Below are positions 1 through 39,120 of a stretch of 64,000 nt of DNA, piece by piece (position 1 is the stretch's first letter; the number at the start of each line of letters is the position of its first letter). The position numbers and the translations under genes were made by a program. The notes beneath the pieces are model-generated. The model did not search any database. It was not told the origin of the DNA and saw nothing but the letters and a program-made list of their open reading frames with translations. This DNA comes from an uncultured Gemmatimonadaceae bacterium (GTDB taxonomy: Bacteria; Gemmatimonadota; Gemmatimonadetes; Gemmatimonadales; Gemmatimonadaceae): the NCBI GenBank assembly GCA_964350145.1, contig CAYGJL010000001.1:25209-89208 (forward strand), in the 5' to 3' direction.

Positions 1-858
1 GGTTTGGCGCGGTTTGCCGGCGAGTTCGGCGTGACCTTGCCTGGCTCCGGGCAGACGCAGTCTTCCGAGTTTTACACGATGCTTCTGCACTCGCGTGCGG
101 TGCTCAACGAAATTGCGAACGACACGATCACCGTTCCCGAGTTGGCGGGACAGAAACGAACCGTCTTTCAGCTGTTCGGCGTCGAAGGGGGCTCAGCCGC
201 GAGCCGGGAAGAGCAGGCCGTGGCGGCGCTGAGGGGCGTCATCAAGCCGTCGGTGACAAGGACTACAGGCGTGGTTCACGTCACGGTCGGAACCCGTTGG
301 CCGAGCGTCTCTCTGGCTATTGCGACGCGCCTCGTTCAGGGCGTCAACGACTACAACCAGCGGACGCGTCAGGGGCAGGCGGTATCCGAGCGCAAATTTG
401 TCGAGGGGAGACTGGCTGTCGCTGGCTTCAACCTTCGCGTGGCGGAGGATCGCCTGCAGCGATTCCTGAGCACCAATCGGGAATTTGCACGGTCACCGGA
501 GCTGACATTTCAACACGAGCGCCTTCAGCGGGACCTGGTGTTCCAACAGCAGCTTTTCACCTCGTTGACGCAGGGGCTCGAAGAGGCTCGCATTCGCGAG
601 GTGCGTGACATGCCGGTCGTAAGTGTAGTAGAGGCGCCGTTTGTCTCGACGAATCCTGAAGGGAAGGGGCGCCGTACCCGCGCGCTTCTTGGATTTGCGA
701 TAGGGGGCTTTGTCGGAATTCTCGTGACGTTGATCGGCGCGGTCATGGCACACTACAAGAAAGAATCGGATCCCGAGGCGACTGAATTTCTCGGCGTTCT
801 CGGTGACGCGAAGCGCGACATTCTTTGGCCGGTGCGGTGGTTGCGCCGCAGATCTTGA
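1..858 (+). CDS. Polysaccharide co-polymerase / chain-length determinant (Wzz/GumC-like), C-terminal part; 5' end outside window
   Basis: Frame is open from base 1. Helical region ([20 protein letters not shown]...[16 protein letters not shown]) is followed by a Pro/Gly segment and a terminal TM helix [23 protein letters not shown], the usual PCP C-terminus. First gene of a glycan locus. Confidence 0.6.
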
Positions 859-1862
859 AAGTTCTCGTTACGGGCGCGGCCGGCTTCATCGGCTCCGCCT
901 TGTGCATCAGGCTCCTGGCGCGCGGCGACCATGTCGTCGGCTTCGACAACCATAACGACTATTACGACCCGTCGATCAAGGAGGCGAGGCTGGCGCGGCA
1001 CGCCGACCACGCGAACTACACGCACATTCGCGGCGACCTCGCTGACCGCGCCGCCGTCGATGATGCCTTTGCGCGGCATGCCCCCGCCCGCGTGGTTCAT
1101 CTCGCCGCCCAGGCCGGTGTCCGGTATTCGATGGAAAATCCGCTCGCCTATATCCACAGCAATCTCGTCGGATTCGGCCATATCCTCGAGGCCTGTCGTC
1201 ACGGGGCCGTCGAGCACCTCGTTTACGCCAGCAGCTCCAGCGTTTACGGCGCGAACACCGCGATGCCGTTTTCGGTTCACCACAACATCGACCATCCCCT
1301 CAGCCTGTACGCTGCAACCAAGAAGGCCAACGAGTTGATGGCGCACACCTACAGCCACTTGTACCGCCTGCCGACTACGGGCTTGCGGTTCTTCACGGTC
1401 TACGGGCCGTGGGGCAGGCCGGACATGGCACTTTTTAAGTTCACCAAGGCCATTCTCGCTGGCGAAGCGATTCCCGTTTTTAACCAGGGGAAACACAGGC
1501 GCGACTTCACGTACATCGACGACATCGTCGAAGGCGTGGTGCGCGTTCTCGACAAGCCGGCCGCGCCGAACCCCGATTGGAGCAGCGACCTGCCCGATCC
1601 CGGATCGAGTTTGGCCCCATGGCGGGTTTACAACATCGGCAACAACAGTCCTGTCGAGCTGATGGATTTCATCTCGGCGCTCGAGGCGGCGTTGGGCCGG
1701 ACGGCGACGAAAGAGTTCCTTCCACTTCAACCCGGCGACGTTCCCGAAACCTATGCCGACGTCGGTGATCTTGTCCGCGACATGGGTTACCAGCCGGCAA
1801 CGCGAGTGGAAGACGGAGTAGCACGCTTCGTCGCCTGGTACCGCGATTACTTCCGCGCATAA
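825..1862 (+). CDS. UDP-glucuronate 4-epimerase-like extended SDR (Cap1J/LpsL/WbnF type)
   Basis: [12 protein letters not shown] Rossmann motif; [11 protein letters not shown]; SSSSVYG and YAATKKANE (S-Y-K triad); [14 protein letters not shown]. True start is probably TTG 855 (TTGA overlap with the upstream stop) or GTG 837. Confidence 0.8.
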
Positions 1863-1875: not shown

Positions 1876-2907
1876 ATGAACAGATTTTCGAATTCGGTCT
1901 CCTCGGGCCGGTGCTACGTCATCGCCGAAGCGGGCCTCAACCACAACGGCTCGCTGGATATGGCCATGCGTCTGATCGACGTGGCGTCGGTCGCGGGCGT
2001 GGACGCGGTGAAATTCCAGAAGCGGACAGTGGACAAGCTCGCCATCGGGTCGGTGCTCGATGCCCCCGACGACCGGTTTCCGGAGTTCGGCAAGACCTAC
2101 AGGGAGATACGCGAGCATCTCGAGTTCACTCTCGACGAGTACCGTGCTCTCAAGGCCTACTCCGAGGCGAAGGGGCTGGATTTCCTCGTCACCGCATTCG
2201 ACACGGAGGCGGTTGATTTCCTCGAGGAGCTCGGCATCGATGTGTACAAACTGGCGAGCCATAGCCTCACAAACCCCGAGCTTCTCGATTACATCGCGCG
2301 GCTTCCCAAGACCGTGATCCTGTCTACGGGTATGGCGGAACTCGGCGAAATCGACGCGGCCGTGGCCGCGTTCAGCCAGCGCGAGGCAACTCTGGCGTTG
2401 ATGCACTGCGTCTCGGCGTACCCGACACCGCCCGCTGAGTGCAACCTCTCGATGATGGGCGTTCTCGCGGATCGTTACGGGCTCACGGTCGGATATTCGG
2501 GTCACGAGCTCGGGTACGTGCCGACGCTTGTCGCCGTGGTCATGGGCGCGGCGTTGATCGAAAGGCATTTCACGCTCGACAAGACGCTGCCCGGCTTCGA
2601 CCACAAGATGTCACTCTCTCCGGACGAGCTGATCGCGATGGTCCGCGACATCCGCCAGATCCCGGCCATCAAGGGCGCGGGTCGCAAGGCGGTAAGCGAC
2701 ACCGAGTGGATCACGCGCCGGAAGTACCACGTGTCGATGGCCTCGGCCGCGGCAATTCCCGCGGGTGCGGTGCTCACCGCGGAAATGGTCACGTGGCGCA
2801 ATCCTGGAACCGGGATACCGGCCAAGGATGCGCATACGGTCCTTGGCAGGCGCGCCAAGTCCAGCATCGGAGCCGACCAACTGCTCTCCGCGGACATGTT
2901 CGAATGA
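1876..2907 (+). CDS. NeuB-family nonulosonic acid synthase (PEP-condensing), copy 1
   Basis: YVIAEAGLNHNGSLDMAMRLID...DAVKFQ N-terminal TIM-barrel signature and a C-terminal SAF-like domain (IPAGAVLTAEMVTWRNPGTGI). About 50 percent identical by eye to the second copy at 31936. Confidence 0.85.
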   Translation: MNRFSNSVSSGRCYVIAEAGLNHNGSLDMAMRLIDVASVAGVDAVKFQKRTVDKLAIGSVLDAPDDRFPEFGKTYREIREHLEFTLDEYRALKAYSEAKGLDFLVTAFDTEAVDFLEELGIDVYKLASHSLTNPELLDYIARLPKTVILSTGMAELGEIDAAVAAFSQREATLALMHCVSAYPTPPAECNLSMMGVLADRYGLTVGYSGHELGYVPTLVAVVMGAALIERHFTLDKTLPGFDHKMSLSPDELIAMVRDIRQIPAIKGAGRKAVSDTEWITRRKYHVSMASAAAIPAGAVLTAEMVTWRNPGTGIPAKDAHTVLGRRAKSSIGADQLLSADMFE

Positions 2908-4283
2908 CGGCCGCCGCCCCGGAAATCTCCATCATCATCCGGACAAAGAACGAGGAGCGCTGGATCGGGCACTGTCTCGCGATGGTGCAGAAGCAGGATC
3001 GATCGGATTTCGAGGTAATCCTCGTTGACAACGCCAGCACCGACGACACGGTCAAGGTCGCGCGCCGGTACCCGCTCGCCGCTGCGTTGAACATCGACAA
3101 GTTCCTGCCGGGGCAAGCGCTGAATGAAGGGATTCGCGCGTCCCGCGGCCGGTTCATCGTCTGCCTGTCCGCGCACTGCATTCCCAAAGCCACGGATTGG
3201 CTTTCCTGCCTGCGGCGAAACTTCGAGGGCGACGAGATGCTGGCCGGGGTTTACGGGCGCCAGCTTCCGCTCAGCTTTACGGAAGCCCTCGACAAGCGCG
3301 ACCTGCTGATCGTCTTCGGGCAGGATCGGCGCGTCCAGATCAAAGACTACTTCTTCCATAACGCCAACAGCATGGTGCGCCGCGAGGTCTGGGATCGTTT
3401 CCCCTTTGATGAAGAGGTCACCAACATCGAAGACCGGGTGTGGGGCAAGGCCGTCACCCACGCGGGGTATCATTTGGTGTACGACCCCGACGCCGCGGTT
3501 TATCACCATCACGGACTGCATCAGGGAAACGCTCCCCAGCGAGCCAAGGGTGTAGTGTCGATCATCGAGCGGATCGACGAAGATGTGGTGAACGACCTGC
3601 CGCTCTCCCTTCGCCCTGAGCACGCCCACATCGTCGCCGTGATTCCGGTACAGGGCGGCGTGGAGCCCGGATCGCATTCACACCGGCTCCTCATGGATGC
3701 GATCGCTGCCGTCAAGAGAGCCCGTTACGTCAACGATGCCTATTTGGTCGCGCCCGCGTCGCTCGACCTCGGGGACGTGGAGGTCCGGCACATCGATCGC
3801 AACTCGATTCCCGGTGTCGATTCGCTCGGCGTGGACGGAGTGTTGCAGCGCAGTCTCCAGTTGATCGAACAGGCCGGCGATTTCCCGGAAGCGGTTCTGT
3901 ATGTCAACTACGATTATCTCCACCGGCCAGCGGGTCTGTTCGACGAGTTGATTCGCGATGCCCAGTACAAGGGTTACGACACTGTATTCCCGGGATATTC
4001 CGACTACGGGCATTACTGGGTCCGCGCGGGGGACGCCGAATACCACCAGACGGACGCATCGCTGAAGGCGCGGTCGGAGCGCGAGCCGGTATTTCGAGCG
4101 CTATACGGTCTCGGCTGCGTTACTTCCGCTTCGATGGTTCGCGCCGGAAAGCTCGTCGGCGGTAGGGTAGGCATCCTTCCCATCAACGATTTCAAGTACA
4201 CGATGCGGTTGAAGGACTCCGGCGCCGCCGAGTTGCCCGCGCTGGAGGGGAGAGCGGATCGTCCCGGCAGTCATGCCCGCTGA
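2904..4283 (+). CDS. Family-2 glycosyltransferase fused to a C-terminal domain of unclear function (possibly a degenerate NeuA/CTP-transferase-like fold)
   Basis: ATG 2904 forms an ATGA overlap with the neuB-like stop. ISIIIRTKNEE...VILVDNASTDDT...IVCLSAHC is a GT-A/GT2 signature. The C-terminal half begins HIVAVIPVQGG, resembling the VIPARGGSK start of cytidylyltransferases but without the RGGSK residues. The ORF-track start at 2439 is rejected because it overlaps neuB in another frame. Confidence 0.6.
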   Translation: MTAAAPEISIIIRTKNEERWIGHCLAMVQKQDRSDFEVILVDNASTDDTVKVARRYPLAAALNIDKFLPGQALNEGIRASRGRFIVCLSAHCIPKATDWLSCLRRNFEGDEMLAGVYGRQLPLSFTEALDKRDLLIVFGQDRRVQIKDYFFHNANSMVRREVWDRFPFDEEVTNIEDRVWGKAVTHAGYHLVYDPDAAVYHHHGLHQGNAPQRAKGVVSIIERIDEDVVNDLPLSLRPEHAHIVAVIPVQGGVEPGSHSHRLLMDAIAAVKRARYVNDAYLVAPASLDLGDVEVRHIDRNSIPGVDSLGVDGVLQRSLQLIEQAGDFPEAVLYVNYDYLHRPAGLFDELIRDAQYKGYDTVFPGYSDYGHYWVRAGDAEYHQTDASLKARSEREPVFRALYGLGCVTSASMVRAGKLVGGRVGILPINDFKYTMRLKDSGAAELPALEGRADRPGSHAR

Positions 4284-5055
4284 GGCCGTCGCGCCCCGCG
4301 TCCTCGGCGTGGTGCTGGCGCGCGGCGGATCGAAGGGCGTTCCACGGAAGAACATTCGCATCGTCGATGGTCATCCACTTATCGCCTACACGATCGTGGA
4401 AGCGCTTCGCTGCCCGCTGATCGACAGATTGATCGTCTCCTCGGAGGACGCGGAGATCAGGCGGGTCGCGATTGAGTACGGCGCCGAGGCGCCCTTTCGC
4501 CGGCCGCCGGAGCTGGCGGTCGATACTGCGCGGTCCGTTGACTGCGACAGGCACGCCGTCGAGTGGGCGGAGAGGGACGAGAGCCGCGCGTATGACTACG
4601 TGGTCGATCTACCGTGCACCAACCCAATGCGCACTTCGACGGACATCGAGGCGGCGCTGCGAAAGATCATCGAGACCGGAGCAGACTCGGTGATCGGCGT
4701 CGCCAGAATCGACGATCATCACCCGATCCGAATCAAGAAGATTGTTGACGATCGAATCCAGGATTTTTGCCTGAAAGAAATTCCCGAGACCAGACGACAG
4801 GACCTGAAGCCGGACGCATACATCAGAAACGGCTCGATCTACGCGGCACGCCGGGACCTGATCGTGAATGGGATTCGGTACGGCACGACGGAGTCGAGGC
4901 CGTACATAATGCCCCCTGAACGGAGCGTAAACGTCGATTCGGAGCTGGATCTCCTCCTAGCGGAGCTCATGCTGCAGCGCGCGGCGCGCGACTATGTCAG
5001 GCCGGTGCGCTCGCGAGCGGAAGCCCAGGCGATTCTGGATGCGTCCGGCGAATGA
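4273..5055 (+). CDS. Acylneuraminate cytidylyltransferase family (CMP-nonulosonate synthetase), copy 1
   Basis: VLGVVLARGGSKGVPRKNIRIVDGHPLIAYTI, the canonical NeuA/CTP_transf_3 N-terminus; 260 aa. Confidence 0.85.
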   Translation: MPAEAVAPRVLGVVLARGGSKGVPRKNIRIVDGHPLIAYTIVEALRCPLIDRLIVSSEDAEIRRVAIEYGAEAPFRRPPELAVDTARSVDCDRHAVEWAERDESRAYDYVVDLPCTNPMRTSTDIEAALRKIIETGADSVIGVARIDDHHPIRIKKIVDDRIQDFCLKEIPETRRQDLKPDAYIRNGSIYAARRDLIVNGIRYGTTESRPYIMPPERSVNVDSELDLLLAELMLQRAARDYVRPVRSRAEAQAILDASGE

Positions 5056-6095
5056 GCACGACCCCAGGCGTTGGGATAGCGGGAAGCGGGTTCGGCGTGC
5101 GGGTGGTGCTTCCTTGCCTCCGCGCGGCCGGCTTTGACGTTCGCACGGTGTGCAGCAGGACTCCTGCCCGTATTGAGGCGGAATCGCGCGCGCACGGCGT
5201 AACCCTGGTCACGTCCGATTATGGCGCGATGCTCGCGGACCCGGCGATCGATTTGGTTTGCGTCGCGACGTATCCGGCGCTGCACGCTGAGATGGCCATC
5301 GCGGCGCTCGAGGCGGGCAAGCATCTCCTGTGCGAGAAGCCGCTGGCGCCGACTGCGCCTGAAGCGATGCGGATTGCCGAAGCGGCGCGCGGCCGCCGGG
5401 TGGTGGCCGCCGTCGATCATGAGCTGAGATTTCATCCCAACTTCGTCCGCACGAGGCACTCGATCGCGAACGGAGAGATCGGCGCGGTGCGGCACGTCGA
5501 ACTGAGATATGCAAGCGCGGTGCGGGTCGATCCGACTCTCCCCTGGACCTGGTGGGCTGATGCTTCGGCCGGCGGCGGACAGCTGAACGCGTTGGGCTCG
5601 CACATGGTTGATGCGCTGACTTGGTGGCTCGATGACGCGGTGGTCGGATCGCAGGGAACGCTCGCCACGTTCGCGGGGACGCGGCCCGTTTCAGGCGGCG
5701 GCTCCGCCGCGGTTACCGCCGACGAGTTTGCATCGTTTCAGCTTCGCTTTTCGCGGGGCGCCGTCGCTTCCGTTGTTGTCAGCGCGGTTGATCCGACCGA
5801 CAGCGGGTTGCGCGTCGAAGTCGTGGGCGAGCGGGGCCGGCTGTCGCTGGACGGTTTCGATTCGCTATCGCTGGCGACCGATCATGCGCCGCCGCGCGAC
5901 ATATCCGTCGAGGACGACCTTTTGGGAATTGATGCGATCGGCTTGAACGGATGGCGCACGTCACTCGTCCGCTACGGCCAACACCTTATAGGCTGTATTC
6001 GCGACGACCTCCCTTTTCTTGGGGCCACACTCGAGGACGGCGTTGAAACACAGCGCGTCCTCGACGCGGTCAGGTCCCGGGACGGGTTGAAGTGA
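5052..6095 (+). CDS. Gfo/Idh/MocA-family NAD(P)-dependent oxidoreductase
   Basis: GIAGSGFGVRV Rossmann start and the HLLCEKPLA motif typical of the family. ATGA overlap with the upstream stop. Confidence 0.75.
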   Translation: MSTTPGVGIAGSGFGVRVVLPCLRAAGFDVRTVCSRTPARIEAESRAHGVTLVTSDYGAMLADPAIDLVCVATYPALHAEMAIAALEAGKHLLCEKPLAPTAPEAMRIAEAARGRRVVAAVDHELRFHPNFVRTRHSIANGEIGAVRHVELRYASAVRVDPTLPWTWWADASAGGGQLNALGSHMVDALTWWLDDAVVGSQGTLATFAGTRPVSGGGSAAVTADEFASFQLRFSRGAVASVVVSAVDPTDSGLRVEVVGERGRLSLDGFDSLSLATDHAPPRDISVEDDLLGIDAIGLNGWRTSLVRYGQHLIGCIRDDLPFLGATLEDGVETQRVLDAVRSRDGLK

Positions 6096-7150
6096 GGATT
6101 TCGGCGGGGGCACTGCAAGCGTTCGTCGCGGAACTGTTCGCGCGTCAGGGCGCCATGCCTGACGAGGCGCTGGAAGTTGCCCAGCACCTCGTGGGCTCCA
6201 ACCTCGCGGGGCACGATTCGCATGGCGTCATGCGCGCACCGTGGTACATGGAGAAGATCGACAAGGGCGAGATCGTGCCGGGCGCTCCGATAACTGTGGA
6301 GCGGGAGTCGGCGACGACGGCCGTAGTGAGTGGTCACTGGGGGTTCGGCCAGCCGATAGCGCGACGCGGAATGGAGTTGGCGATCGAGAAGGCTTCCGCC
6401 CATGACCTCGGATGCGTGACTGTGCGCGAGTGCAACCACATGGGCCGGCTCGGCGCGTACACCACTCTGGCATCGTCGCGCGGCTTCGTCGGAATCGGAA
6501 TGGCCAATCTCCATGGAACCAGCCATTGCGTGGCGCCCTTCGGGGGAATCGACCGCAAGCTGCCGACGAATCCGATCTCGATAGCGTTTCGTCGCGGCGA
6601 GACGCCGGACTTTCTGCTCGACATGACGTCGAGCATCGTCGCTGAAGGAAAGCTTAAGCTGCGCCTCAATCGCGGTGAGCCATTACCGGATGGATGGGCG
6701 ATAGACAGCGAGGGACTGCCTGCATCCAAGCCGGCTCAATTCTACGACGAGCCGCGGGGCGCCATCCTCCCGCTCGGCGGGCCGATGGGCCATAAAGGGT
6801 TCGGACTGTCGCTGGCGATCGATGCGTTGAGCGGGGCGCTGTCGGGCGCTGACTGCTCCAACCCGCGAAGTGGCCGCCACGGCAACGCGTGTCTTTTCCT
6901 GGCGATCAGGATCGAGGCGTTCTGCCCCCTCGCCGAGTTCGAGGCGAAAGTCCGGGAGCTGATGGCGCACGTGCAGAGCGCTCGGCCCATGCCGGGAGTC
7001 GACGGCATCATGGTGCCGGGCGAGCCCGAACATCGATCGGCGCAGGCGGGCGAGCGCGACGGCGTGCTCGTCGATGACATGACCTGGACGGCACTGCGAG
7101 AGCGAGCCGGACGCGCCGGTGTTCACGCGCCGGAGCCGCTCCAGCCATGA
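6092..7150 (+). CDS. Ldh_2 family (malate/L-lactate/sulfolactate-type) 2-hydroxyacid dehydrogenase
   Basis: HDSHGVMRAPWY..., GFGQPIARRGMELAIEKA, NHMGRLGAY, FGGIDRKLPTNPISIA, LDMTSSIVAEGKL, LPLGGPMGHKGFGLSL. These blocks are collinear with the Ldh_2 family as I recall it. GTGA overlap with the upstream gene. Confidence 0.75.
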   Translation: MRISAGALQAFVAELFARQGAMPDEALEVAQHLVGSNLAGHDSHGVMRAPWYMEKIDKGEIVPGAPITVERESATTAVVSGHWGFGQPIARRGMELAIEKASAHDLGCVTVRECNHMGRLGAYTTLASSRGFVGIGMANLHGTSHCVAPFGGIDRKLPTNPISIAFRRGETPDFLLDMTSSIVAEGKLKLRLNRGEPLPDGWAIDSEGLPASKPAQFYDEPRGAILPLGGPMGHKGFGLSLAIDALSGALSGADCSNPRSGRHGNACLFLAIRIEAFCPLAEFEAKVRELMAHVQSARPMPGVDGIMVPGEPEHRSAQAGERDGVLVDDMTWTALRERAGRAGVHAPEPLQP

Positions 7151-8958
7151 CCGCACCCCGCGCCGCGAGCACGTTGCGCCTGCTCGTGCGCCTCTGGCGG
7201 CATCTGAGCCGGCGGCGGCGACGCCAGCTGATGCTTCTTTTCGGCGTCATGCTCCTCTCCGGCGTGGCCGAGGTCGTCAGCCTCGGCGCGGTGCTGCCGT
7301 TTCTTCTCGTGCTCACCGCGCCCGAAAAGGCGTTGCAGCACCCGGTCATAGGGGACATGGCCCGGTCCTGGGGCATCACGACGCCCGATCAGCTCGTGGT
7401 GCCGCTGACCGTAGCCTTCATCGGGCTGGCGCTGGTCGCGGCGGGGATTCGAATGCTCCTGCTGTGGAGCAACACGCGCCTGGCGTTCGCCAGTGGAGCC
7501 GAGCTCAGCAGCGAGGTATACCGACGGACACTGTACCAGCCCTACCGCGTGCATACGGCGCGAAACAGCAGTGAGGTCATCAGCGGACTTTCGATAAAAG
7601 TCGCCGGTGCCGTGAGCGTCCTGTTGTCGCTGCTGATTCTGGCGAACTCGATCGTGCTGTTGGTGGCGATCATGTTCGCGCTGATCGCCATTGATCCCGT
7701 GGTGGCGCTCGAGGCGACGGCGGGGTTCGGTCTGGGGTACGTTCTCATCACGTGGATGACCCGGCGGCGCCTCAGACGGAACAGTGTGCTGATCGCGCAT
7801 GAGCAGACCCAGGTGATCAAGGCGCTGCAGGAGGGACTCGGCGGCATTCGCGACGTCCTGCTCGACGGTACCCAGGGAGTGTACTGCGATGTTTACCGGA
7901 AGGCCGACCATCCACTGCGGCGCGCGCAGGGAAACAACATTTTCATCAGTTCCAGTCCGCGCTACGCAATGGAGGCGCTGGGCATGGTGTTCATCGCTGT
8001 GCTGGCGTTCATCCTGAGCCGTGGAGCAGGCGGTCTCGCAACGGCCTTGCCGGTTCTGGGTGCGCTGGCCCTCGGTGCGCAGCGTCTGTTGCCGGCACTG
8101 CAGCAGGGGTACAGCGCGTGGGCTGCGATCGCGGGGAGCCACGCTTCGCTGTCGGATACGGTTGACCTGCTCGACCAGCCGCTCCCGGCGGAGATTCACC
8201 TGCCGGAGCCCGACCCGCTTCCATTCGGCCAGTCGATCCAGTTCAGCGGGGTGTGGTTTCGCTACGTGAGTGACGGCCCCTGGGTCGTCGAGGACATGAA
8301 CCTGGAAATTCCCAAGGGAGCCCGGGTCGGCTTCGTCGGAACCACGGGGAGCGGGAAGAGCACGACACTCGATCTGCTGATGGGCCTACTGCCTCCCACG
8401 CGAGGCGAAGTTCTCGTTGACGGGCAGCCACTGCGAGGAAGCCGGACAAGAGCGTGGCAGAGGACAATTGCGCACGTGCCGCAGAGCATCTTCCTCGCGG
8501 ACGTGAGCGTGGCGGAGAACATCGCGTTCGGTGTGCCGCGCGGGGCGATCGACATGGAGCGGGTCCACCGCGCCGCGCGTCAGGCGCAAATCGCCGACTT
8601 CATCGAGCACGGCCCCCTCGGGTACGACGCCATGGTGGGGGAGCGCGGCATTCGACTGTCCGGGGGGCAGCGCCAGCGAATCGGTATCGCCCGCGCTCTC
8701 TACAAGGATGCCAGTGTACTAGTTTTCGACGAGGCAACCAGCGCGCTCGACAGCGCCACCGAGCTCTCGGTGATGGAAGCCATAGACGAGCTCAACCGCG
8801 ATCTGACGATCCTGCTCATCGCCCACAGGCTGACGACCGTGCGGCGATGCGATACGATCGTGGAGCTGGAACATGGCAGCGTGGTGGCGCAGGGCACCTA
8901 CGAGCGCTTGCTAGAGACCAGCGCGAGCTTCCGCAGCATTGCGTCCACCATTCGCTGA
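7147..8958 (+). CDS. ABC exporter, fused TMD-NBD half transporter (MsbA/PglK-like)
   Basis: N-terminal hydrophobic half with about 6 helices. Walker A GTTGSGKST, signature LSGGQRQR, Walker B VLVFDEATSALD, H-loop IAHRL. Confidence 0.85.
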   Translation: MTAPRAASTLRLLVRLWRHLSRRRRRQLMLLFGVMLLSGVAEVVSLGAVLPFLLVLTAPEKALQHPVIGDMARSWGITTPDQLVVPLTVAFIGLALVAAGIRMLLLWSNTRLAFASGAELSSEVYRRTLYQPYRVHTARNSSEVISGLSIKVAGAVSVLLSLLILANSIVLLVAIMFALIAIDPVVALEATAGFGLGYVLITWMTRRRLRRNSVLIAHEQTQVIKALQEGLGGIRDVLLDGTQGVYCDVYRKADHPLRRAQGNNIFISSSPRYAMEALGMVFIAVLAFILSRGAGGLATALPVLGALALGAQRLLPALQQGYSAWAAIAGSHASLSDTVDLLDQPLPAEIHLPEPDPLPFGQSIQFSGVWFRYVSDGPWVVEDMNLEIPKGARVGFVGTTGSGKSTTLDLLMGLLPPTRGEVLVDGQPLRGSRTRAWQRTIAHVPQSIFLADVSVAENIAFGVPRGAIDMERVHRAARQAQIADFIEHGPLGYDAMVGERGIRLSGGQRQRIGIARALYKDASVLVFDEATSALDSATELSVMEAIDELNRDLTILLIAHRLTTVRRCDTIVELEHGSVVAQGTYERLLETSASFRSIASTIR

Positions 8959-17861: not shown

Positions 17862-18923
17862 ATGGAAATTCCCCGGACGATGAAAGCCGCGATCCTGGTT
17901 GAGCTGCAGCGCCCTCTGGTCGTGGACGAAGTGGAGCTGCCGACGCGGCTCGAAGCTGGCCAGGTACTGGTCAGGATACTGTACAGCGGCATTTGCGGCT
18001 CGCAGCTCGGCGAGATAGACGGCTCGAAGGGGGAGGACAAGTATTTGCCCCACCTGCTGGGGCACGAGGCATCCGGAACCGTGCAGGCAGTCGGGCCCGG
18101 CGTACGATACGTCGCGCCGGGCGACGCCGTAGTCCTCCACTGGCGGAAGGGTCGCGGCATTGACTCCGTTCCCCCCAGCTACAAGTGGAAGGGCGGGACC
18201 CTGAACGCAGGCCATATCGCGACGTTCAACGAGTACGCGATCGTATCGGAGAATCGCGCCACGAAGATCGATTCATCGTACGACATGGAGACGGCCGCGC
18301 TGTTCGGGTGCGCGGTGACGACTGGTTTTGGCGTGGTGGAGAACAACGCGAAGGTGAAGTGCGGCGAGTCGGTGGTCGTGTTCGGAGCCGGCGGAGTCGG
18401 GCTAAACATCGTGCAGGCCGCCGCCATCCGCGGCGCGTATCCCATCATCGCGCTGGACCTCCACGACGGACGACTCGACCTGGCGCGGCAGTTCGGCGCG
18501 ACGCACACGATCAACTCCGGGCGAACCGAAGCACGGGCAGCCATTCTCGAAGCTCTTGGCGGCATACAAGTGGATGTGTTCGTTGACAACACCGGCCAGC
18601 CGGCCATCATCGAGTTGGGTTACGGGCTGACGGGACCGCAGGGCCGCGTCATTCTCGTCGGGGTTCCGCGGAAGGGAAGGAACGTGACCCTCTACTCCCT
18701 CCCGCTGCACTTCGGCAAAGTGATGACGGGCTCCCACGGCGGAGAGGCGAGTCCGGATGAGGACATTCCACGGTATCACAGGCTCGTGACTGCCGGACGG
18801 ATACAACTCAAGCCGCTCATCACGGACCGGTTCCGCCTCGACGACATCAACATCGCGATCGGGAAGATGCGCAGCGGGGAAGTCAGCGGCCGGTGTTCGA
18901 TCGCGATGTCCCCGTCCCCGTAG
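17862..18923 (+). CDS. Zinc-dependent medium-chain alcohol/polyol dehydrogenase
   Basis: CGSQ...LLGHEASGTV (catalytic Zn ligands) and VVFGAGGVGLNIVQAA (GxGxxG). Start ATG 17862. Confidence 0.8.
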   Translation: MEIPRTMKAAILVELQRPLVVDEVELPTRLEAGQVLVRILYSGICGSQLGEIDGSKGEDKYLPHLLGHEASGTVQAVGPGVRYVAPGDAVVLHWRKGRGIDSVPPSYKWKGGTLNAGHIATFNEYAIVSENRATKIDSSYDMETAALFGCAVTTGFGVVENNAKVKCGESVVVFGAGGVGLNIVQAAAIRGAYPIIALDLHDGRLDLARQFGATHTINSGRTEARAAILEALGGIQVDVFVDNTGQPAIIELGYGLTGPQGRVILVGVPRKGRNVTLYSLPLHFGKVMTGSHGGEASPDEDIPRYHRLVTAGRIQLKPLITDRFRLDDINIAIGKMRSGEVSGRCSIAMSPSP

Positions 18924-20032
18924 GATCCCCATTGCAGGCGGTTAGCGACCGACTCGCCGAACGAAGGAGAAAGCGCGCCCTGAAGCGCTTGCCGTTTCGC
19001 GAAGTCAGCGACGCGGCAGCGGGGGTCGACAATCTCAGCGGTCCGGTCAAGGCTGCGCGGCTGCTCACCCGGTACCTGGTGAGGGCAGCCGGTTATCGGT
19101 CTGCCGGGACGATCCTTCGCGTCGTGCTGCGGGGGTTCGGCCCCACGCGCGCCGGGGACCGAACCGGGACACGGGAATACGTCCGATACCTGCTGGAGGT
19201 AAACCGGCTCCGGGTCGAGTACCTCGAGCGGCTGTGCGCGGGCGATCTTCACGGCGCCGTGCAAAGCAAGATCCGGTGGGCGGAGCATGTAATCGCCCGC
19301 TCGCGCAGCACGCTATCCCGCTGGGATGCGCGCAACTATCTGGCCCTGCTCGCGCGACATGGCCACTACGCGGGCGTGGAAGGTCGTTGCGCTGTCCGGA
19401 TCGAGCGGAGGACGGACAGGAAGTTTTACATCTACGGGCCGAACGCCGGGCACCCGCCCGACGAGAAGTACCGCGACTACACCCTTGTCATAACCAAGCC
19501 CGTGGAGCTCGATCTGCGCGCCTTCACCGACAAGATGCTGTTCATCAACAGCATGTACTACGCGAAGCTCGCGCGCGAGCCGGGTCTACGGGAGAGCATC
19601 GTGCGCGAGTACGGCACCATCTTCGTCAGCTGCCGTGAGGCGGAGCTGTCGGAGCCTTTTGTCCGCTCGAAGTTTCCGCTCGGCGGCGACATCGCGTCGG
19701 CGCAGGGCCTCGGGAGGGTGATATACAATCTCCTGCGGACGTACGGCCGGTTCACGTGTGTGATCGAGGGGTTTGACATGTACGTGGGGAAGAGAACCTA
19801 CGCACCTTACTACCCGCATCTGGGGCGCGACAGCAAGGCGATGGTCAGCGAGCGATCTGCCTGCAACGGGCTCAAGGATCATGACGCGCTGTTCAATTTC
19901 TTGTACGTGAAGGAACTGGCCGGGATGCTGGAGGTAGTGGATTCGCTTGCGTTCAAGCGCCTCGTGGGGCTGAGTGGCACACAGTACTTGGACGAACTGG
20001 CCCTGGCCCGGGATTTCACGTCGCTGTGCTGA
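18893..20032 (+). CDS. Orphan protein, no family recognised; C-terminal half has a Cst-II (GT42)-like motif order (tentative)
   Basis: A 379-codon ORF fills the only otherwise unassigned + strand space here, with codon style like its neighbours. FYIYGPNAG..., GRVIYNLLRTYGRFTCVIEGFDMYVG, KDHDALFNFLYVKEL are discussed in findings. Confidence 0.45.
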   Translation: MFDRDVPVPVGSPLQAVSDRLAERRRKRALKRLPFREVSDAAAGVDNLSGPVKAARLLTRYLVRAAGYRSAGTILRVVLRGFGPTRAGDRTGTREYVRYLLEVNRLRVEYLERLCAGDLHGAVQSKIRWAEHVIARSRSTLSRWDARNYLALLARHGHYAGVEGRCAVRIERRTDRKFYIYGPNAGHPPDEKYRDYTLVITKPVELDLRAFTDKMLFINSMYYAKLAREPGLRESIVREYGTIFVSCREAELSEPFVRSKFPLGGDIASAQGLGRVIYNLLRTYGRFTCVIEGFDMYVGKRTYAPYYPHLGRDSKAMVSERSACNGLKDHDALFNFLYVKELAGMLEVVDSLAFKRLVGLSGTQYLDELALARDFTSLC

Positions 20033-36986: not shown

Positions 36987-37783
36987 CTGGCCTCGCCGGG
37001 TTGATGAGTCTCGAGGGCCGCCGCGCCGTCGTGACCGGCGCGGCTGGGCGGCTGGGCGGTGTAATCGCGGGAACTCTCGCCGAACTCGGTGCCAGTCTGG
37101 TGCTGGTGGATAAGCCGGGGTCGGACTACGGTGCGCTCCTGAAGGATCTGGAGTCGGTCGGCAAATCTCCCGTCGAGACGATGGACTGCGACCTGGAGCT
37201 CGAGCAGGATCGGGAGGGCCTGATCCAGCGAATCCGACTGGCCGGGTCGCTGCATGTCCTCGTCAACAACGCGGCGTTCGTTGGCGACTCGAAGCTGACA
37301 GGCTGGTCAACGGAGTTCGAGCGGCAAACGGTGGCCACCTGGCGCCGAGCGCTCGAGGTCAACCTTACGGCCGTGTTCGACCTCTCGAAGGGACTCGCCG
37401 GGCTGCTGCGCGAGAGCGACGGGGGAAACATCATAAACGTGGCGTCGATTTACGGGTCGTACGCGCCCGATTACAGCTTGTATGCCGGGACCGCAATGGG
37501 AAATCCGGCGGCGTACGCCGCATCCAAGGGCGGCATGATTCAGCTTACGCGCTGGCTGGCGACTACTCTCGCGCCGCAGGTGCGCGCGAACGCGATTTCG
37601 CCGGGCGGTATCCTGCGCGGCCAGCCTGACATTTTCGTCAAACGGTACGAGGAGCGAACACCGCTGGGGCGGATGGCGCGCGAGGAGGACTTCATTGGCG
37701 CTGTCGCCTATCTGGCTACAGACCTCTCGCGCTACGTCACTGGTCAGAACCTGGCCGTTGATGGCGGCTGGGGACTGTGGTGA
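36983..37783 (+). CDS. Classical SDR oxidoreductase accompanying the leg genes (PtmA-like position)
   Basis: ATGA overlap at 36983. AVVTGAAGRLGG, NNAAF, YAASKGGM (YxxxK). Confidence 0.75.
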   Translation: MTGLAGLMSLEGRRAVVTGAAGRLGGVIAGTLAELGASLVLVDKPGSDYGALLKDLESVGKSPVETMDCDLELEQDREGLIQRIRLAGSLHVLVNNAAFVGDSKLTGWSTEFERQTVATWRRALEVNLTAVFDLSKGLAGLLRESDGGNIINVASIYGSYAPDYSLYAGTAMGNPAAYAASKGGMIQLTRWLATTLAPQVRANAISPGGILRGQPDIFVKRYEERTPLGRMAREEDFIGAVAYLATDLSRYVTGQNLAVDGGWGLW

Positions 37784-37805
37784 TGCGGTCGCGCAGGGCG
37801 CGGAA

Positions 37806-39086
37806 ATGAAGTTCACGCGAACGGCCAGAGTACTGCTGACCGAGTTGAAATACATCAGACGGGGTTTGACCTGGCCCGAGTTCGCCTTGTTCGTGTCCCG
37901 AAGGGCGGGATACCGCGCGTGGCAGCGGGTCTCCGATCCGAGCGCGTTCAAAGCGAAGTGGCAATCGATGGCCGCGCCATCCGCGGCAGGCAGGCTTAAC
38001 GAGCGGGTCTCCTGGCCCGCGGGCGAACCCACATCCGGCGTGCGTGTGCCGGAGTGCACGATCAACTGGGTAATGCCGGACTTCGGCACCACGCACGGCG
38101 GACATCTCAACATTTTCCGCTTCATGCAGATGATCGAAAGCCAGGGGTACCGGTGCCGCGTTTACATCGACGGCAACACGCAGTTCGCTTCCGCGGCGAG
38201 AGCGCGGGCGGCAATTCGGAAGCACTTCGGGCCGGTCGAGGCGGAAGTTTTCCTTGGCAGCACGGAAATGGCCCCGGCGGAGTTTACGTTCGCGACCACC
38301 TGGTGGTCGGCATACGCTGTGCGGCGCTTCGCCGACACGAGGCACAAGTGCTACTTCGTGCAGGATTTCGAGCCGGCGTTTTTCCCGGCCGGAAGCGAAT
38401 ACATCTTCGCCGAGAACACGTACCGGTTCGGCTTCACGGCGATAACGGCAGGGACGTGGCTGTCGGAGAAGCTGCATCACGAATACGGGGCGCGGACGTT
38501 CCCGCTGGGATTTTCTTACGACAAGCGACTGTACAGCGGGAGTGTCGCGCTGCCCAAGGTCGGGAAGCCGATCCGTATTTTCTTCTATGCCAGGCCGACG
38601 ACGCCGCGGCGTGGATTCGACGTCGGGGTTCTCGTTCTCGCCGAGGTGGCACGTAGGCATCCGGACGTGGAGATCGTGATGGCCGGCTGGGATCTCTCGG
38701 CGTACGACATTCCGTTCAAGCACAACGATTTGGGCGCGCTGTCGCACAGCGCTCTGCCCGCTCTCTTCGAAAGCTGTGACATCGGCCTGGTGCTATCGTA
38801 TTCGAATCTTTCGCTGCTTCCGCTCGAGCTCATGGCATGTGGCTGCGCGGTCGTAAGCAACAGAGGCCCGAATGTCGAGTGGCTCTTGAGCGAAGCCAAC
38901 TCGGTCCTGGTCGATTCCGACATCGACGCTCTCGCTGGCGCAATTTGCGGGCTGATCGAAGATTCGGCCGCGCGAGCGGCGCAGCAGCGAGCGGGTCTCG
39001 AATTCGCGGCGGGGACGGATTGGCGGGCTGAGGGCGCGCGATTCCATGCGGCGCTAGAGCAGATCCGCGCGGCAGGCAAGGCCTAG
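37806..39086 (+). CDS. GT-B glycosyltransferase, WsaF-like / group 1
   Basis: INWVMPDFGTTHGGHLNIFRF (WsaF-like N-domain). C-terminal DIGLVLSYSNLSLLPLELMACGCAVVS (group-1 EX7E-type region). Start ATG 37806. Confidence 0.7.
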   Translation: MKFTRTARVLLTELKYIRRGLTWPEFALFVSRRAGYRAWQRVSDPSAFKAKWQSMAAPSAAGRLNERVSWPAGEPTSGVRVPECTINWVMPDFGTTHGGHLNIFRFMQMIESQGYRCRVYIDGNTQFASAARARAAIRKHFGPVEAEVFLGSTEMAPAEFTFATTWWSAYAVRRFADTRHKCYFVQDFEPAFFPAGSEYIFAENTYRFGFTAITAGTWLSEKLHHEYGARTFPLGFSYDKRLYSGSVALPKVGKPIRIFFYARPTTPRRGFDVGVLVLAEVARRHPDVEIVMAGWDLSAYDIPFKHNDLGALSHSALPALFESCDIGLVLSYSNLSLLPLELMACGCAVVSNRGPNVEWLLSEANSVLVDSDIDALAGAICGLIEDSAARAAQQRAGLEFAAGTDWRAEGARFHAALEQIRAAGKA

Positions 39087-39120
39087 CTCGTGACCCTTCG
39101 CGCATTCGGCGGCTGATGGG

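What the first reader, a model, noticed from the sequence alone, without database searches (positions are those of the whole stretch)
1876..7150. Second nonulosonate-type synthase/CMP-transferase set, with non-canonical partners
The complete leg set sits at 29-37 kb. In addition there is a separate NeuB-family synthase (1876-2907) and a NeuA-family cytidylyltransferase (4273-5055). Both are only moderately similar by eye to legI and legF, so they are old paralogues and not a recent duplication. Their operon partners are not the usual Neu/Pse/Leg enzymes. They are a GT2 fusion protein, a Gfo/Idh/MocA oxidoreductase and an Ldh_2 dehydrogenase. The downstream block (SDRs, SIS isomerase, two tandem aminotransferases, transketolase) could supply a non-standard aldose acceptor. 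The locus may therefore make two different 2-keto-3-deoxy-ulosonic acids, and I cannot assign the second to a known pathway. One speculative option is condensation of PEP with a heptose-derived or otherwise extended sugar.
Basis: partly seen in the sequence, partly recalled or inferred. Interest (0 to 1): 0.6.

Follow-up and report, generated by a model that had tools for sequence, protein, structure and literature searches.

The report
Second, uncharacterised CMP-ulosonic acid cassette
Next to a normal legionaminic-acid gene set, this Gemmatimonadaceae genome carries a rare version of a widespread gene cassette that I found described in no paper and that most likely builds and CMP-activates a different, still unidentified acidic keto-sugar for the cell surface.

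Summary
Genes 1876-7150 are translationally coupled: a NeuB-family synthase, a GT2 fusion, a CMP-ulosonate synthetase, a Gfo/Idh/MocA oxidoreductase and an Ldh_2 dehydrogenase.

The synthase is not a spare LegI. It is 41% identical to LegI, scores below the NeuB and PseI equivalog cut-offs, and sits in its own fully supported clade. Its sugar pocket is changed (E134S, D214G, T56K/H57R, R314N).

The set is conserved elsewhere. In 57 of 68 informative related loci the same synthase clade lies directly upstream of the same fusion protein. That fusion is a GT-A domain with SxH in place of DxD, joined to a CMP-nonulosonate-synthetase fold without its P-loop.

The redox partners come in three forms: 2-hydroxyacid dehydrogenase (common), enolase-type dehydratase plus dehydrogenase, and Gfo plus Ldh_2. 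The last is the window's form and was seen in only about five other loci.

The downstream SIS/aminotransferase/transketolase block does not travel with the cassette. A UDP-glucuronate 4-epimerase does.

The best reading is a self-contained pathway to a second CMP-activated ulosonic acid made from an anionic aldose. The sugar's identity is not resolved.

Earlier notes from this scan flagged the same fusion in other genomes.

The parts
825..1862 (+). UDP-glucuronate 4-epimerase-like SDR, 13 nt upstream of the synthase. It is a frequent but not universal companion of the cassette.
   Evidence: It is 68% identical to PDB 5u4q (462 bits) and next-closest to B. cereus UGAepi 6zl6 (167 bits). It keeps the UGAepi carboxylate-binding Arg185 and the Ser/Thr triad (PMC12338863). 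Homologues at 45% identity or more occur in 15 of 90 cassette loci and in 0 of 76 other NeuB-family loci.
1876..2907 (+). NeuB-family PEP-condensing synthase of a distinct clade ('NeuBL'), 343 aa, TIM barrel plus SAF domain.
   Evidence: Pfam NeuB 257 bits plus SAF. NCBIfam NeuB 314 bits (cut-off 399.65) and PseI 230 bits (cut-off 340.25). 41% identical to LegI. Own clade with 100% SH-aLRT support. Metal and PEP residues are kept, but E134S, G133H, D214G, T216E, T56K, H57R and R314N differ from NmNeuB and are invariant in the clade.
2904..3608 (+). N-terminal GT-A (GT2-like) domain of the fusion protein 'GT2f'. The DxD motif is replaced by an invariant S89-A-H91. The ED motif (E176-D177) and a His-rich VYHHHGLHQ block are conserved.
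   Evidence: Pfam Glycos_transf_2 72 bits. Profile alignment to the chondroitin polymerase K4CP puts SAH on its DSD/DCD motifs. Invariant columns are listed. AF2 model and Foldseek hits to GT2 enzymes.
3609..4283 (+). C-terminal domain of GT2f: a CMP-nonulosonate-synthetase fold that lacks the CTP-binding ARGGSK..KN motif (pseudo-cytidylyltransferase).
   Evidence: No Pfam hit. AF2 model of the domain alone has pLDDT 88. Foldseek top hits are CMP-Pse, CMP-Neu5Ac and CMP-Kdn synthetases, TM 0.65-0.74 at 11-14% identity. Motif loss is seen.
4273..5055 (+). Intact CMP-ulosonate synthetase ('CMPt'), 260 aa.
   Evidence: CTP_transf_3 67 bits. PseF model 129 bits (cut-off 205.7). Best solved relative is V. 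cholerae CMP-Neu5Ac synthetase, 123 bits. 34% identical to LegF. 84% identical to the copy in the sister locus L005 but about 61% and 44% to the copies in the other two cassette variants.
5052..6095 (+). Gfo/Idh/MocA NAD(P) oxidoreductase. Part of the rare 'variant C' redox module.
   Evidence: Pfam GFO_IDH_MocA plus its C-terminal domains. 70% identical to the L005 orthologue. Same position in L005, L194 and L195.
6092..7150 (+). Ldh_2-family 2-oxo/2-hydroxy-acid dehydrogenase. The second half of the variant C redox module.
   Evidence: Pfam Ldh_2 334 bits. Nearest solved relatives are type-2 malate and L-sulfolactate dehydrogenases. 81% identical to the L005 orthologue.
7147..8958 (+). Fused TMD-NBD ABC exporter (MsbA/PglK/HepA-like), translationally coupled to Ldh_2.
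   Evidence: An ABC exporter lies near the cassette in 14 of 25 long loci, but the exporters are not orthologous to each other.
41830..43614 (+). PhyH dioxygenase::methyltransferase fusion. It is the orthologue of the gene that directly follows Ldh_2 in the other variant C loci, so it is probably part of the same system although it lies 35 kb away here.
   Evidence: 54-55% identical over full length to L194:14650-16557 and L005:15756-17264. Gene order is shown.
39983..41407 (+). 474-aa protein with faint LIC12162-family similarity. Candidate transferase for the activated sugar.
   Evidence: TIGR04331 22.6 bits only. 45-47% identical to genes upstream of the cassette in L005 and L194. LIC12162-family transferases accompany the cassette in 8 of 25 long loci.
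37695..40059 (+). WsaF-like GT4 glycosyltransferase (37695-39086) and a 312-aa SDR epimerase/dehydratase (39121-40059). Their orthologues directly precede the cassette in L005 and L194.
   Evidence: 61% identical each to the L005 genes. Pfam hits.
18893..20032 (+). Orphan 379-aa protein. It co-travels with variant C cassettes.
   Evidence: 50% and 47% identical to L005:2318-3424 and L194:3415-4521. No Pfam family.
51583..53673 (+). PP-loop (WbpG/QueC-like) protein (51583-52881) and a methyltransferase (52897-53673). Both co-travel with variant C cassettes.
   Evidence: 82% and 67% identical to L005 genes, and 62% to L194. Pfam hits.

Best explanation
Genes 1876-7150, with the epimerase at 825-1862, are this genome's copy of a horizontally spread, self-contained cassette. 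It makes and CMP-activates an ulosonic acid that is not legionaminic, pseudaminic or neuraminic acid.

Shown:
- The synthase, the GT-A::pseudo-cytidylyltransferase fusion and a true cytidylyltransferase form a fixed trio in about 90 loci from many phyla.
- The synthase keeps its metal and PEP residues but has a remodelled sugar pocket. The pocket gains Lys/Arg and loses the Arg that binds the N-acetyl group in NeuB.
- The trio is always joined by a redox module. All families in that module act next to a carboxylate.

Inferred pathway:
1. The upstream epimerase gives UDP-galacturonate.
2. The GT-A half of the fusion releases the free aldose from a UDP-sugar. It does the job that NeuC, LegG or PseG do in known pathways. 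Its dead cytidylyltransferase half binds the (CMP-)ulosonate, perhaps as a feedback sensor.
3. The synthase condenses PEP with this anionic aldose. A hexuronate is my first choice, which would give a dicarboxylic 'ulosaric' acid. A sugar 6-phosphate giving a Kdn-like acid is my second choice.
4. The cytidylyltransferase activates the product.
5. Gfo plus Ldh_2 oxidise and re-reduce one carbinol, as ElaA/ElaC do on CMP-Leg. This gives the variant specific to this lineage.
6. A LIC12162-like or other transferase and the ABC exporter deliver the sugar.

My confidence is about 0.8 that this is a distinct second CMP-ulosonic acid pathway. It is about 0.45 for the hydrolase role of the fusion and about 0.3 for a uronate acceptor.
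For: Family assignments and translational coupling.

Distinct clade and pocket:
- 41% identical to LegI.
- Below both equivalog cut-offs.
- 100% SH-aLRT split from LegI, NmNeuB, PseI and SpsE.
- Residue changes.

Conservation:
- Thousands of homologues at 64-79% identity for the synthase and the fusion.
- NeuBL lies directly upstream of the fusion in 57 of 68 loci. CMPt is present in 24 of 25 long loci and a 2-hydroxyacid dehydrogenase in 15 of 25.
- No orthologue in 40 relatives of the genome.

Fusion anatomy.

Order of steps:
- Between redox variants the synthase and fusion stay as similar as within a variant (synthase 66-70%, fusion 55-59%).
- CMPt falls from 73% to 44-61%.

Anionic or uronate acceptor:
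- The UGA-epimerase is enriched, 15 of 90 versus 0 of 76, and keeps its carboxylate-binding residues.
- UDP-sugar 6-dehydrogenase-family genes occur in 13 loci.
- The variant B partner is an enolase-superfamily acid-sugar dehydratase, which needs a carboxylate alpha-proton. C2 of an ulosonate cannot offer one.
- No phosphatase family is conserved with the cassette.

Precedent for Gfo + cytidylyltransferase + reductase acting on a CMP-nonulosonate: PMC13656337.
Against: - No enzyme here has been assayed, and I found no paper on this cassette.
- The GT-A domain could be a true transferase. Its fold matches two-domain polymerases, and sialyltransferases often tolerate distal changes in the donor.
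- CMPt may covary with the redox module only because the two genes are inherited as one unit.
- In the Ela system the redox steps act after CMP activation, not before.
- The UGA-epimerase is absent from most loci and may simply supply another sugar of the polymer.
- I know of no reported nonulosaric acid in nature.
- The sister NeuB group sits next to sugar-phosphate enzymes. That favours a phosphorylated acceptor.
- E134, counted as catalytic in NeuB (PMC8208679), is Ser here.
Confidence: 0.55

Rival explanations
1. The pathway is the same, but the GT2 fusion is the glycosyltransferase (or a two-domain polymerase) that uses the CMP-activated sugar. Its cytidylyltransferase-like half would be the CMP-sugar binding site and its GT-A half would add a UDP-uronate. 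It would not be a precursor-releasing hydrolase.
For: - Whole-protein Foldseek hits are the two-GT-A polymerases K4CP and PmHS2.
- Loss of DxD fits enzymes that do not need a metal-bound diphosphate.
- The C-domain has a CMP-sugar synthetase fold.
- ABC exporters, typical of polymerase-made capsules, are frequent neighbours.
- UDP-GalA supply genes are enriched.
- The window has no clear LIC12162 transferase.
Against: - The fusion is as conserved as the synthase (50-75% identity across phyla) and is always glued to the synthase gene. It pairs with at least two NeuB lineages.
- It does not covary with the redox variant although its donor would differ between variants.
- Without it the pathway has no enzyme to free an aldose.
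- LIC12162-family transferases are present in many loci.
Confidence: 0.25
2. The acceptor is a common sugar 6-phosphate such as mannose-6-phosphate. The cassette would then make a Kdn-like, amino-free nonulosonic acid by the NANS/Kdn-9-P route, later tailored by the dehydrogenases.
For: - The Arg that binds the N-acetyl group is lost and Lys/Arg are gained in the pocket.
- The sister SAF-less group sits beside SIS isomerases and transketolase.
- No dehydratase, aminotransferase or acetyltransferase is conserved with the cassette.
- The closest structural relatives of the C-domain include a CMP-Kdn synthetase.
Against: - No phosphatase is conserved with the cassette.
- This reading leaves the GT-A domain, the uronate-supply genes and the carboxylate-directed redox enzymes (2-Hacid_dh, Ldh_2, enolase-type dehydratase) without an obvious role.
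Confidence: 0.2
3. One reading: the downstream block (SIS isomerase, two aminotransferases, split transketolase, kinase/HAD) builds a heptose-derived or otherwise extended aldose. The synthase would turn it into a higher-carbon (C10 or longer) ulosonic acid.
For: - The block is adjacent and co-directional in this window.
- The window's SIS is a second, divergent GmhA-like copy (111 versus 163 bits for the other copy in the genome).
- Relatives of the synthase in other genomes sit next to SIS or split-transketolase genes.
- CMP-activated C10 keto acids, with no genes assigned, have been reported in Magnetospirillum (bioRxiv 10.64898/2026.04.20.719630).
Against: - In 25 long loci with the same cassette, SIS occurs once and transketolase never.
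- The closest variant C loci (L005, L194, L195) lack the block altogether.
- The synthase is equally conserved with and without the block.
Confidence: 0.08
4. Simple redundancy: the set is a second copy of the Leg (or Pse) synthase and activating enzyme with the same substrates.
For: Both proteins hit the NeuB and CTP_transf_3 families. The synthase scores higher on the NeuB/LegI model than on the PseI model.
Against: - 41% and 34% identity to LegI and LegF.
- Below all equivalog cut-offs.
- Separate clade.
- N-acetyl-binding Arg and other pocket residues changed.
- None of the other Leg or Pse enzymes travels with it.
Confidence: 0.02

Closest known systems
Legionaminic, pseudaminic and neuraminic acid pathways (LegI/PseI/NeuB synthase plus LegF/PseF/NeuA cytidylyltransferase)
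   Same: A NeuB-fold PEP-condensing synthase with a SAF domain and an intact CTP_transf_3 CMP-synthetase lie in one operon of a surface-glycan locus. The metal and PEP-binding residues are kept.
   Different: - Separate clade, below the equivalog cut-offs.
- E134, D214 and R314 are replaced.
- No dehydratase, aminotransferase, acetyltransferase or NeuC/LegG/PseG hydrolase.
- Instead a GT-A::pseudo-cytidylyltransferase fusion and carboxylate-directed dehydrogenases.
ElaABC, the CMP-Leg5,7Ac2 C8-epimerisation module of Acinetobacter KL49 (PMC13656337), and EpaAB for 8-epi-Pse (PMC12053666)
   Same: A cytidylyltransferase is paired with a Gfo/Idh/MocA oxidase and a second reductase that together invert one carbinol of a nonulosonate.
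   Different: - The reductase here is Ldh_2 family, not SDR or aldo-keto reductase.
- Orthology was not shown. The two Gfo proteins of the window share only 31% identity over 136 residues.
- Most cassettes use a single 2-hydroxyacid dehydrogenase instead.
NANS / Kdn-9-phosphate synthase route (animals, Bacteroides thetaiotaomicron)
   Same: A NeuB-fold enzyme whose acceptor carries an anionic group and need not carry an N-acetyl group. Motifs KFQK and GYSGHE are shared (from a sequence recalled from memory).
   Different: No phosphatase partner. Only 33% identical. E134 is Ser rather than Asp. The partners are different.
UDP-sugar hydrolases of nonulosonate pathways (NeuC, LegG, PseG) and the CMP-Neu5Ac feedback control of mammalian GNE
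   Same: This is the proposed role of the fusion: free the aldose from a nucleotide sugar at the committed step, with a domain that could sense the CMP-activated end product.
   Different: Those enzymes have GT-B or epimerase folds. A GT-A hydrolase fused to a dead cytidylyltransferase has no described precedent that I found. The role is inferred, not tested.
Two-GT-A-domain capsule polymerases (E. coli K4 chondroitin polymerase, Pasteurella heparosan synthase 2)
   Same: They are the best whole-protein fold matches. The loci also share an association with UDP-uronate supply and ABC export.
   Different: Only the first domain is a GT2. Its DxD is SxH. The second domain is closest to CMP-sugar synthetases, not to glycosyltransferases.

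Membership tests
NeuB/LegI/PseI nonulosonate synthases | NeuB TIM-barrel domain plus C-terminal SAF (antifreeze-like) domain | tested here: met
   PF03102 257 bits and PF08666 41 bits.
NeuB/LegI/PseI nonulosonate synthases | Metal ligands (His215, His236) and PEP/catalytic residues Glu25, Lys53, Gln55, Lys129, Ser132, Glu234, Asp247 (N. meningitidis numbering) | tested here: met
   All align to identical residues that are invariant in the clade.
NeuB/LegI/PseI nonulosonate synthases | Glu134 (listed as catalytic in PMC8208679) and the N-acetyl-binding Arg314 of the SAF domain | tested here: not met
   Glu134 aligns to Ser130 and Arg314 to Asn309, with an Arg one position earlier. Both are invariant in the clade.
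NeuB/LegI/PseI nonulosonate synthases | Score above the curated equivalog cut-off (TIGR03569 NeuB/LegI type or TIGR03586 PseI) | tested here: not met
   314.4 bits against a cut-off of 399.65, and 229.6 against 340.25. The window's LegI scores 493.
NeuB/LegI/PseI nonulosonate synthases | Groups with characterised LegI, NeuB or PseI in a family tree | tested here: not met
   148-row tree. The GT2f-adjacent clade is one side of a 100% SH-aLRT branch. LegI of the window, NmNeuB, CjPseI and BsSpsE are on the other side. This was a quick search with LG+G4, and the reference sequences were rebuilt from the printed alignments.
CMP-nonulosonate synthetases (CTP_transf_3) | CTP_transf_3 domain with the N-terminal ARGGSKxxPxKN CTP-binding motif | tested here: met
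   The stand-alone protein 4273-5055 meets this: 67 bits and LARGGSKGVPRKN. Best solved relatives are CMP-Neu5Ac and CMP-Pse synthetases. It is below the PseF equivalog cut-off (129 against 206).
CMP-nonulosonate synthetases (CTP_transf_3) | The same motif in the C-terminal domain of the GT2 fusion | tested here: not met
   The fold matches (TM 0.65-0.74). There is no Pfam hit, hhalign probability is 8%, and the Arg/Lys motif is absent from the family alignment.
GT2 inverting glycosyltransferases | GT-A fold with a DxD metal/diphosphate motif and a catalytic Asp in an ED motif | tested here: inconclusive
   The fold and ED (E176-D177) are present. DxD is replaced by an invariant S-A-H that aligns to the DSD/DCD of K4CP. 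Whether it transfers, hydrolyses or only binds cannot be told from sequence.
ElaABC-type CMP-nonulosonate epimerisation module | Cytidylyltransferase + Gfo/Idh/MocA oxidase + SDR reductase acting on a CMP-nonulosonate | tested here: inconclusive
   The cytidylyltransferase and Gfo are present at family level. The reductase is Ldh_2, not SDR. No Ela protein was available for comparison. The description of the module comes from PMC13656337.
UDP-glucuronate 4-epimerase (for 825-1862) | Extended SDR with catalytic Tyr/Lys, the carboxylate-binding Arg185 and the Ser/Thr triad of BcUGAepi | tested here: met
   The alignment to 6zl6 shows SSS for T126-S127-S128, YxxxK, and WGRPDMA for RQR185PDMA. The residue roles are from PMC12338863.
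Kdn-9-phosphate / NANS route | Dedicated HAD phosphatase partner for the 9-phosphate product | tested here: not met
   No phosphatase family appears among gene clusters shared by 4 or more of 90 loci.

The most novel reading that the evidence does not exclude
The cassette makes a sugar class not yet described. One candidate is a dicarboxylic 3-deoxy-non-2-ulosaric acid, formed by condensing PEP with a free hexuronate that a GT-A enzyme releases from UDP-GalA. That GT-A enzyme would carry a dead CMP-synthetase domain as a product sensor. The other candidate is a higher-carbon acid made from a heptose phosphate. In either case the three redox modules would generate three natural variants of the sugar, and the window would hold the rarest one.
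Probability: 0.3. Interest if true: 0.85.

Novelty: new variant of a known kind. Interest (0 to 1): 0.64.

Why it matters
Sialic-acid-like sugars shape how bacteria meet phages, predators and immune systems. The known repertoire (Neu, Leg, Pse, Kdn, Kdo and their epimers) rests on a handful of pathways.

This cassette has thousands of members in metagenomes from Nitrospira, Gallionellales, Bacteriovorax, Magnetococcales, Planctomycetia and marine plankton. I found no paper that describes it.

It offers three things:
- A defined, small gene set that can be expressed to look for a new CMP-activated acidic sugar.
- A new enzyme architecture, GT-A fused to a pseudo-cytidylyltransferase.
- Candidate genes for some of the unassigned CMP-sugars that untargeted mass spectrometry now reports in environmental bacteria.

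Tried and rejected
- Literature: searches for the gene combination, for LIC12162 and for NeuB clades found no description of the cassette. PMC8208679 gives only a coarse NeuB tree.
- GT2f C-domain: Pfam found nothing. Profile-profile comparison with CTP_transf_3 gave only 8% probability. The relationship became clear only after folding the domain alone.
- Leptospira-type small GT2: the small GT2 that accompanies another NeuB type (L102:4672-5313) is not detectably related to the fusion.
- GTDB species-representative scan: it returned only four members of the clade. The search patterns also caught a sister group that carries AVKFQKRT. The identity gap of 57% or more versus 48% or less is partly shaped by that sampling.
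- Genome look-ups for L005 and L194 were not possible.
- Ela proteins did not turn up in the PDB copy as relatives of either Gfo gene.
- Two exceptional loci (L139, L149) have a faint Epimerase_2-like gene upstream of the fusion instead of a synthase. This was uninformative.
- A strict reading of the CMPt covariation as proof that the redox steps precede activation was dropped. Co-inheritance of CMPt with its redox genes explains it equally well, and the Ela enzymes act on the CMP-sugar.

Full report
**1.
The window is about 64% G+C and all genes discussed are on the + strand.
- ORF 1876-2907 has a NeuB domain (257 bits) and a SAF domain.
- ORF 4273-5055 is a CTP_transf_3 cytidylyltransferase.
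- ORF 5052-6095 is Gfo/Idh/MocA.
- ORF 6092-7150 is Ldh_2 (334 bits).
- The GT2 gene starts at 2904, where its ATG overlaps the synthase stop (ATGA), and ends at 4283 (459 aa).

Overlaps of 4-11 nt join every gene from the synthase to the ABC exporter at 7147-8958. An SDR gene ends 13 nt before the synthase.

The Leg set at 29-37 kb is authentic. LegB, LegC, a NeuD-type acetyltransferase, LegI (493 bits on the NeuB/LegI model), a NeuC-type hydrolysing epimerase, a PtmE-like nucleotidyltransferase, a Gfo protein, a LegF-like cytidylyltransferase and a PtmA-like SDR are all there.

RpoB places the genome, a 2.9-Mb MAG, in the Gemmatimonadaceae.

**2. It is not a spare Leg set.**
- The synthase is 41% identical to LegI and the cytidylyltransferase 34% to LegF.
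- The synthase scores 314 bits on the NeuB/LegI equivalog model (cut-off 399.65) and 230 on PseI (cut-off 340.25). The cytidylyltransferase scores 129 on PseF (cut-off 205.7).
- In a 148-sequence tree, the synthase and its relatives form one side of a branch with 100% SH-aLRT support. The window's LegI, N. meningitidis NeuB, C. jejuni PseI and B. subtilis SpsE are on the other side. This was a quick LG+G4 search, and the PDB references were rebuilt from printed alignments.

Aligned to N. meningitidis NeuB, the metal ligands and PEP residues are kept. Seven positions around the sugar site differ and are invariant in the clade:

| N. meningitidis NeuB | This clade |
|---|---|
| E134 | S130 |
| G133 | H129 |
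| D214 | G209 |
| T216 | E211 |
| T56 | K49 |
| H57 | R50 |
| R314 | N309 |

E134 is listed as catalytic and R314 as the conserved SAF-domain residue in PMC8208679.

**3. The gene set is a conserved cassette.**
- The synthase and the GT2 protein each have thousands of homologues at 64-79% identity in metagenomes. The few named sources include Nitrospira, Nitrosomonadaceae and Gallionellales.
- Contigs fetched around eight synthase homologues, four genome loci and 80 metagenome loci found through the GT2 protein gave about 90 non-redundant loci.
- Of 68 loci with enough upstream sequence, 57 have the same synthase clade directly upstream of the GT2 protein. Five have another NeuB lineage there.
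- In 25 long loci the counts are: cytidylyltransferase 24, 2-hydroxyacid dehydrogenase 15, enolase-superfamily (MR_MLE) protein 7, ABC exporter 14, LIC12162-family transferase 8, a further NeuB-type gene (second nonulosonate set) 9.
- None of 40 relatives of the window's genome has an orthologue. Their best matches are 38-43% identical. The cassette has therefore moved horizontally.

**4. The GT2 'fusion'.**
The N-terminal half is a GT-A domain.
- In a profile alignment its invariant S89-A-H91 lies on the DSD and DCD motifs of chondroitin polymerase K4CP.
- The ED motif and a His-rich block (VYHHHGLHQ) are invariant.

The C-terminal half has no Pfam match.
- Folded alone (pLDDT 88), its best structural matches are CMP-Pse5Ac7Ac, CMP-Neu5Ac and CMP-Kdn synthetases, at TM 0.65-0.74 and 11-14% identity.
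- The ARGGSK..KN motif that binds CTP is absent.
- It is thus a pseudo-cytidylyltransferase that probably still recognises a cytidine nucleotide and/or the keto acid.

**5. Three redox variants; the window has the rare one.**
- Variant A has a PGDH-like D-2-hydroxyacid dehydrogenase. It is the majority form.
- Variant B has an acid-sugar-dehydratase-like MR_MLE protein plus a GhrB-like dehydrogenase. It is common in marine contigs.
- Variant C has Gfo plus Ldh_2. It was found only in the window, L005/L006, L194, L195 and probably L109.

Mean pairwise identities over 39 complete loci:

| Protein | Within variant A | Between variants |
|---|---|---|
| Synthase | 66% | 68-70% |
| Fusion | 57% | 55-59% |
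| Cytidylyltransferase | 73% | 46% (A-B), 61% (A-C), 44% (B-C) |

So the synthase and the fusion see the same substrates in all variants, while the activating enzyme goes with the redox module. Either the redox enzymes change the sugar before activation, or the activating and redox genes are exchanged as one unit. The Ela precedent, where the enzymes act on CMP-Leg (PMC13656337), keeps the second option open.

**6. The variant C system is larger than the finding.**
In L005, L194 and L195 the gene after Ldh_2 is a PhyH::methyltransferase fusion. The window's copy (41830-43614) is 54-55% identical to it over full length.

Genes upstream of the cassette in L005 and L194 also have orthologues scattered through the window:
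- 51583-52881 (82% to L005, 62% to L194)
- 52897-53673 (67%)
- 37695-39086, a WsaF-like GT (61%)
- 39121-40059, an SDR (61%)
- 18893-20032, an orphan protein (50% and 47%)
- 39983-41407, a faintly LIC12162-like protein (45-47%)

The window therefore looks like an expanded version of those compact loci, with the Leg set and other modules inserted.

**7. Which acceptor?**
SIS occurs in 1 of 25 long loci. Transketolase and aminotransferases at 40% identity or more occur in none, and the block is absent from the other variant C loci.

What does travel with the cassette is the SDR at 825-1862.
- It is 68% identical to PDB 5u4q and next-closest to B. cereus UDP-glucuronate 4-epimerase.
- It keeps that enzyme's carboxylate-binding Arg185 and Ser/Thr triad (PMC12338863).
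- Homologues at 45% identity or more occur in 15 of 90 cassette loci and in 0 of 76 other NeuB-family loci.
- UDP-sugar 6-dehydrogenase-family genes occur in 13 loci.

Four points lead me to favour a hexuronate acceptor, which would give a dicarboxylic ulosaric acid:
- the Lys/Arg gained in the synthase pocket;
- the lack of any phosphatase among conserved neighbours;
- the fact that 2-Hacid_dh, Ldh_2 and MR_MLE enzymes all work at the alpha-carbon of a carboxylate;
- the fact that C2 of a CMP-activatable ulosonate has no alpha-proton and must stay a ketone.

The main rival is a sugar 6-phosphate (Kdn-like route).
- The SAF-less sister group that shares these motifs sits next to SIS or split-transketolase genes in other genomes.

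These two readings cannot be separated by sequence.

**8. Proposed mechanism.**
Shown: the family of each protein, the gene order and coupling, the clade, the residue changes, the domain folds and the co-occurrence statistics.

Inferred:
- (a) The epimerase supplies UDP-GalA.
- (b) The GT-A domain frees the aldose, which no other conserved gene could do. Its pseudo-cytidylyltransferase domain binds the (CMP-)product, possibly for feedback as CMP-Neu5Ac does on GNE. The GNE comparison rests on my own knowledge.
- (c) The synthase condenses PEP with the aldose.
- (d) The cytidylyltransferase activates the acid.
- (e) Gfo oxidises and Ldh_2 re-reduces one position, in Ela fashion.
- (f) A LIC12162-like or other transferase uses the CMP-sugar, and the ABC exporter moves the product.

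The fusion could instead be the transferase. I give that 0.25.

**9. Comparison, novelty and limits.**
The system works like a nonulosonate pathway, but it fails several membership tests for LegI, PseI and NeuB. It has partner enzymes for which I found no description in the papers searched.

Untargeted mass spectrometry has recently found unassigned CMP-linked keto acids in environmental bacteria (bioRxiv 10.64898/2026.04.20.719630). That makes an uncharacterised pathway plausible. No link to this cassette was shown.

Earlier notes of this scan flagged the same fusion in other genomes, in this form and next to MR_MLE or DAHP-synthase-like genes. I confirmed the fusion and the MR_MLE variant independently. 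I did not test the DAHP-synthase pairing.

Everything about chemistry here is inference from sequence, and no expression data were examined.

Noticed in passing
window 35155-37783: The Leg set ends with Gfo/Idh/MocA (35155-36285), a LegF-like cytidylyltransferase (36282-36986) and a PtmA-like SDR (36950-37783). This trio has the same families as ElaA, ElaB and ElaC, which convert CMP-Leg5,7Ac2 to its C8 epimer in Acinetobacter KL49 (PMC13656337). The 'Leg' product here may therefore be an epimer such as 8-epi-Leg.
   Followed up: partly
window 41473-48784: The carrier-protein acyl module was earlier read as an N-acyl swap for legionaminic acid. It begins with a PhyH::methyltransferase whose orthologues directly follow the Ldh_2 gene of the second cassette in L005, L194 and L195. 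In L005 and L195 those orthologues are followed by KAS III, a ketoreductase, a methyltransferase and a small ACP-sized gene. The acyl decoration may belong to the second sugar rather than to Leg.
   Followed up: partly
window 18893-20032: The orphan 379-aa protein, with no family hit, has 47-50% identical orthologues just upstream of variant C cassettes in L005 and L194. It is a conserved member of that gene group and a candidate transferase.
   Followed up: partly
window 50417-53673: The second of two PP-loop (WbpG/QueC-like) paralogues (51583-52881) is 82% identical to a gene in L005. That is more than any gene of the cassette itself. The following methyltransferase is 67% identical. Both sit upstream of the cassette in L005 and L194.
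   Followed up: partly
loci L017, L018, L019, L026, L032, L041, L056, L059 (SIS) and L037, L051, L074 (split transketolase): A large group of SAF-less NeuB homologues shares the FQKRT, AS.S and SGHE pocket motifs of the window's synthase. It includes Lachnospiraceae, Melainabacteria, Actinomycetota and Bacteroidota. In these loci the homologue lies next to SIS-domain isomerases or split transketolases, which hints at sugar-phosphate acceptors in that group.
   Followed up: partly
loci L121, L122, L143, L166: A second, unrelated NeuB lineage also sits directly upstream of the same GT2::pseudo-cytidylyltransferase fusion. It is SAF-less, keeps E134 and shares H129 and the D214G change. The fusion therefore pairs with more than one synthase type.
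   Followed up: partly
window 9910-10530 and G000:C32:3914-4366: The window's SIS protein is the more divergent of two GmhA-like genes in the genome (111 versus 163 bits on TIGR00441, both below the cut-off of 209).
   Followed up: no
G000 contigs C23:20542-21126, C9:73740-74306, C20:55679-56254: Three further weak NeuB-domain matches (35-48 bits, covering only part of the model) lie elsewhere in the genome. Their nature was not examined.
   Followed up: no
locus L102 3593-8864: A Leptospira-type set lies beside the cassette in one metagenome contig: a NeuB homologue, a small 213-aa GT2, a cytidylyltransferase, a methyltransferase and a LIC12162 transferase. Its small GT2 is not detectably related to the fusion.
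   Followed up: partly
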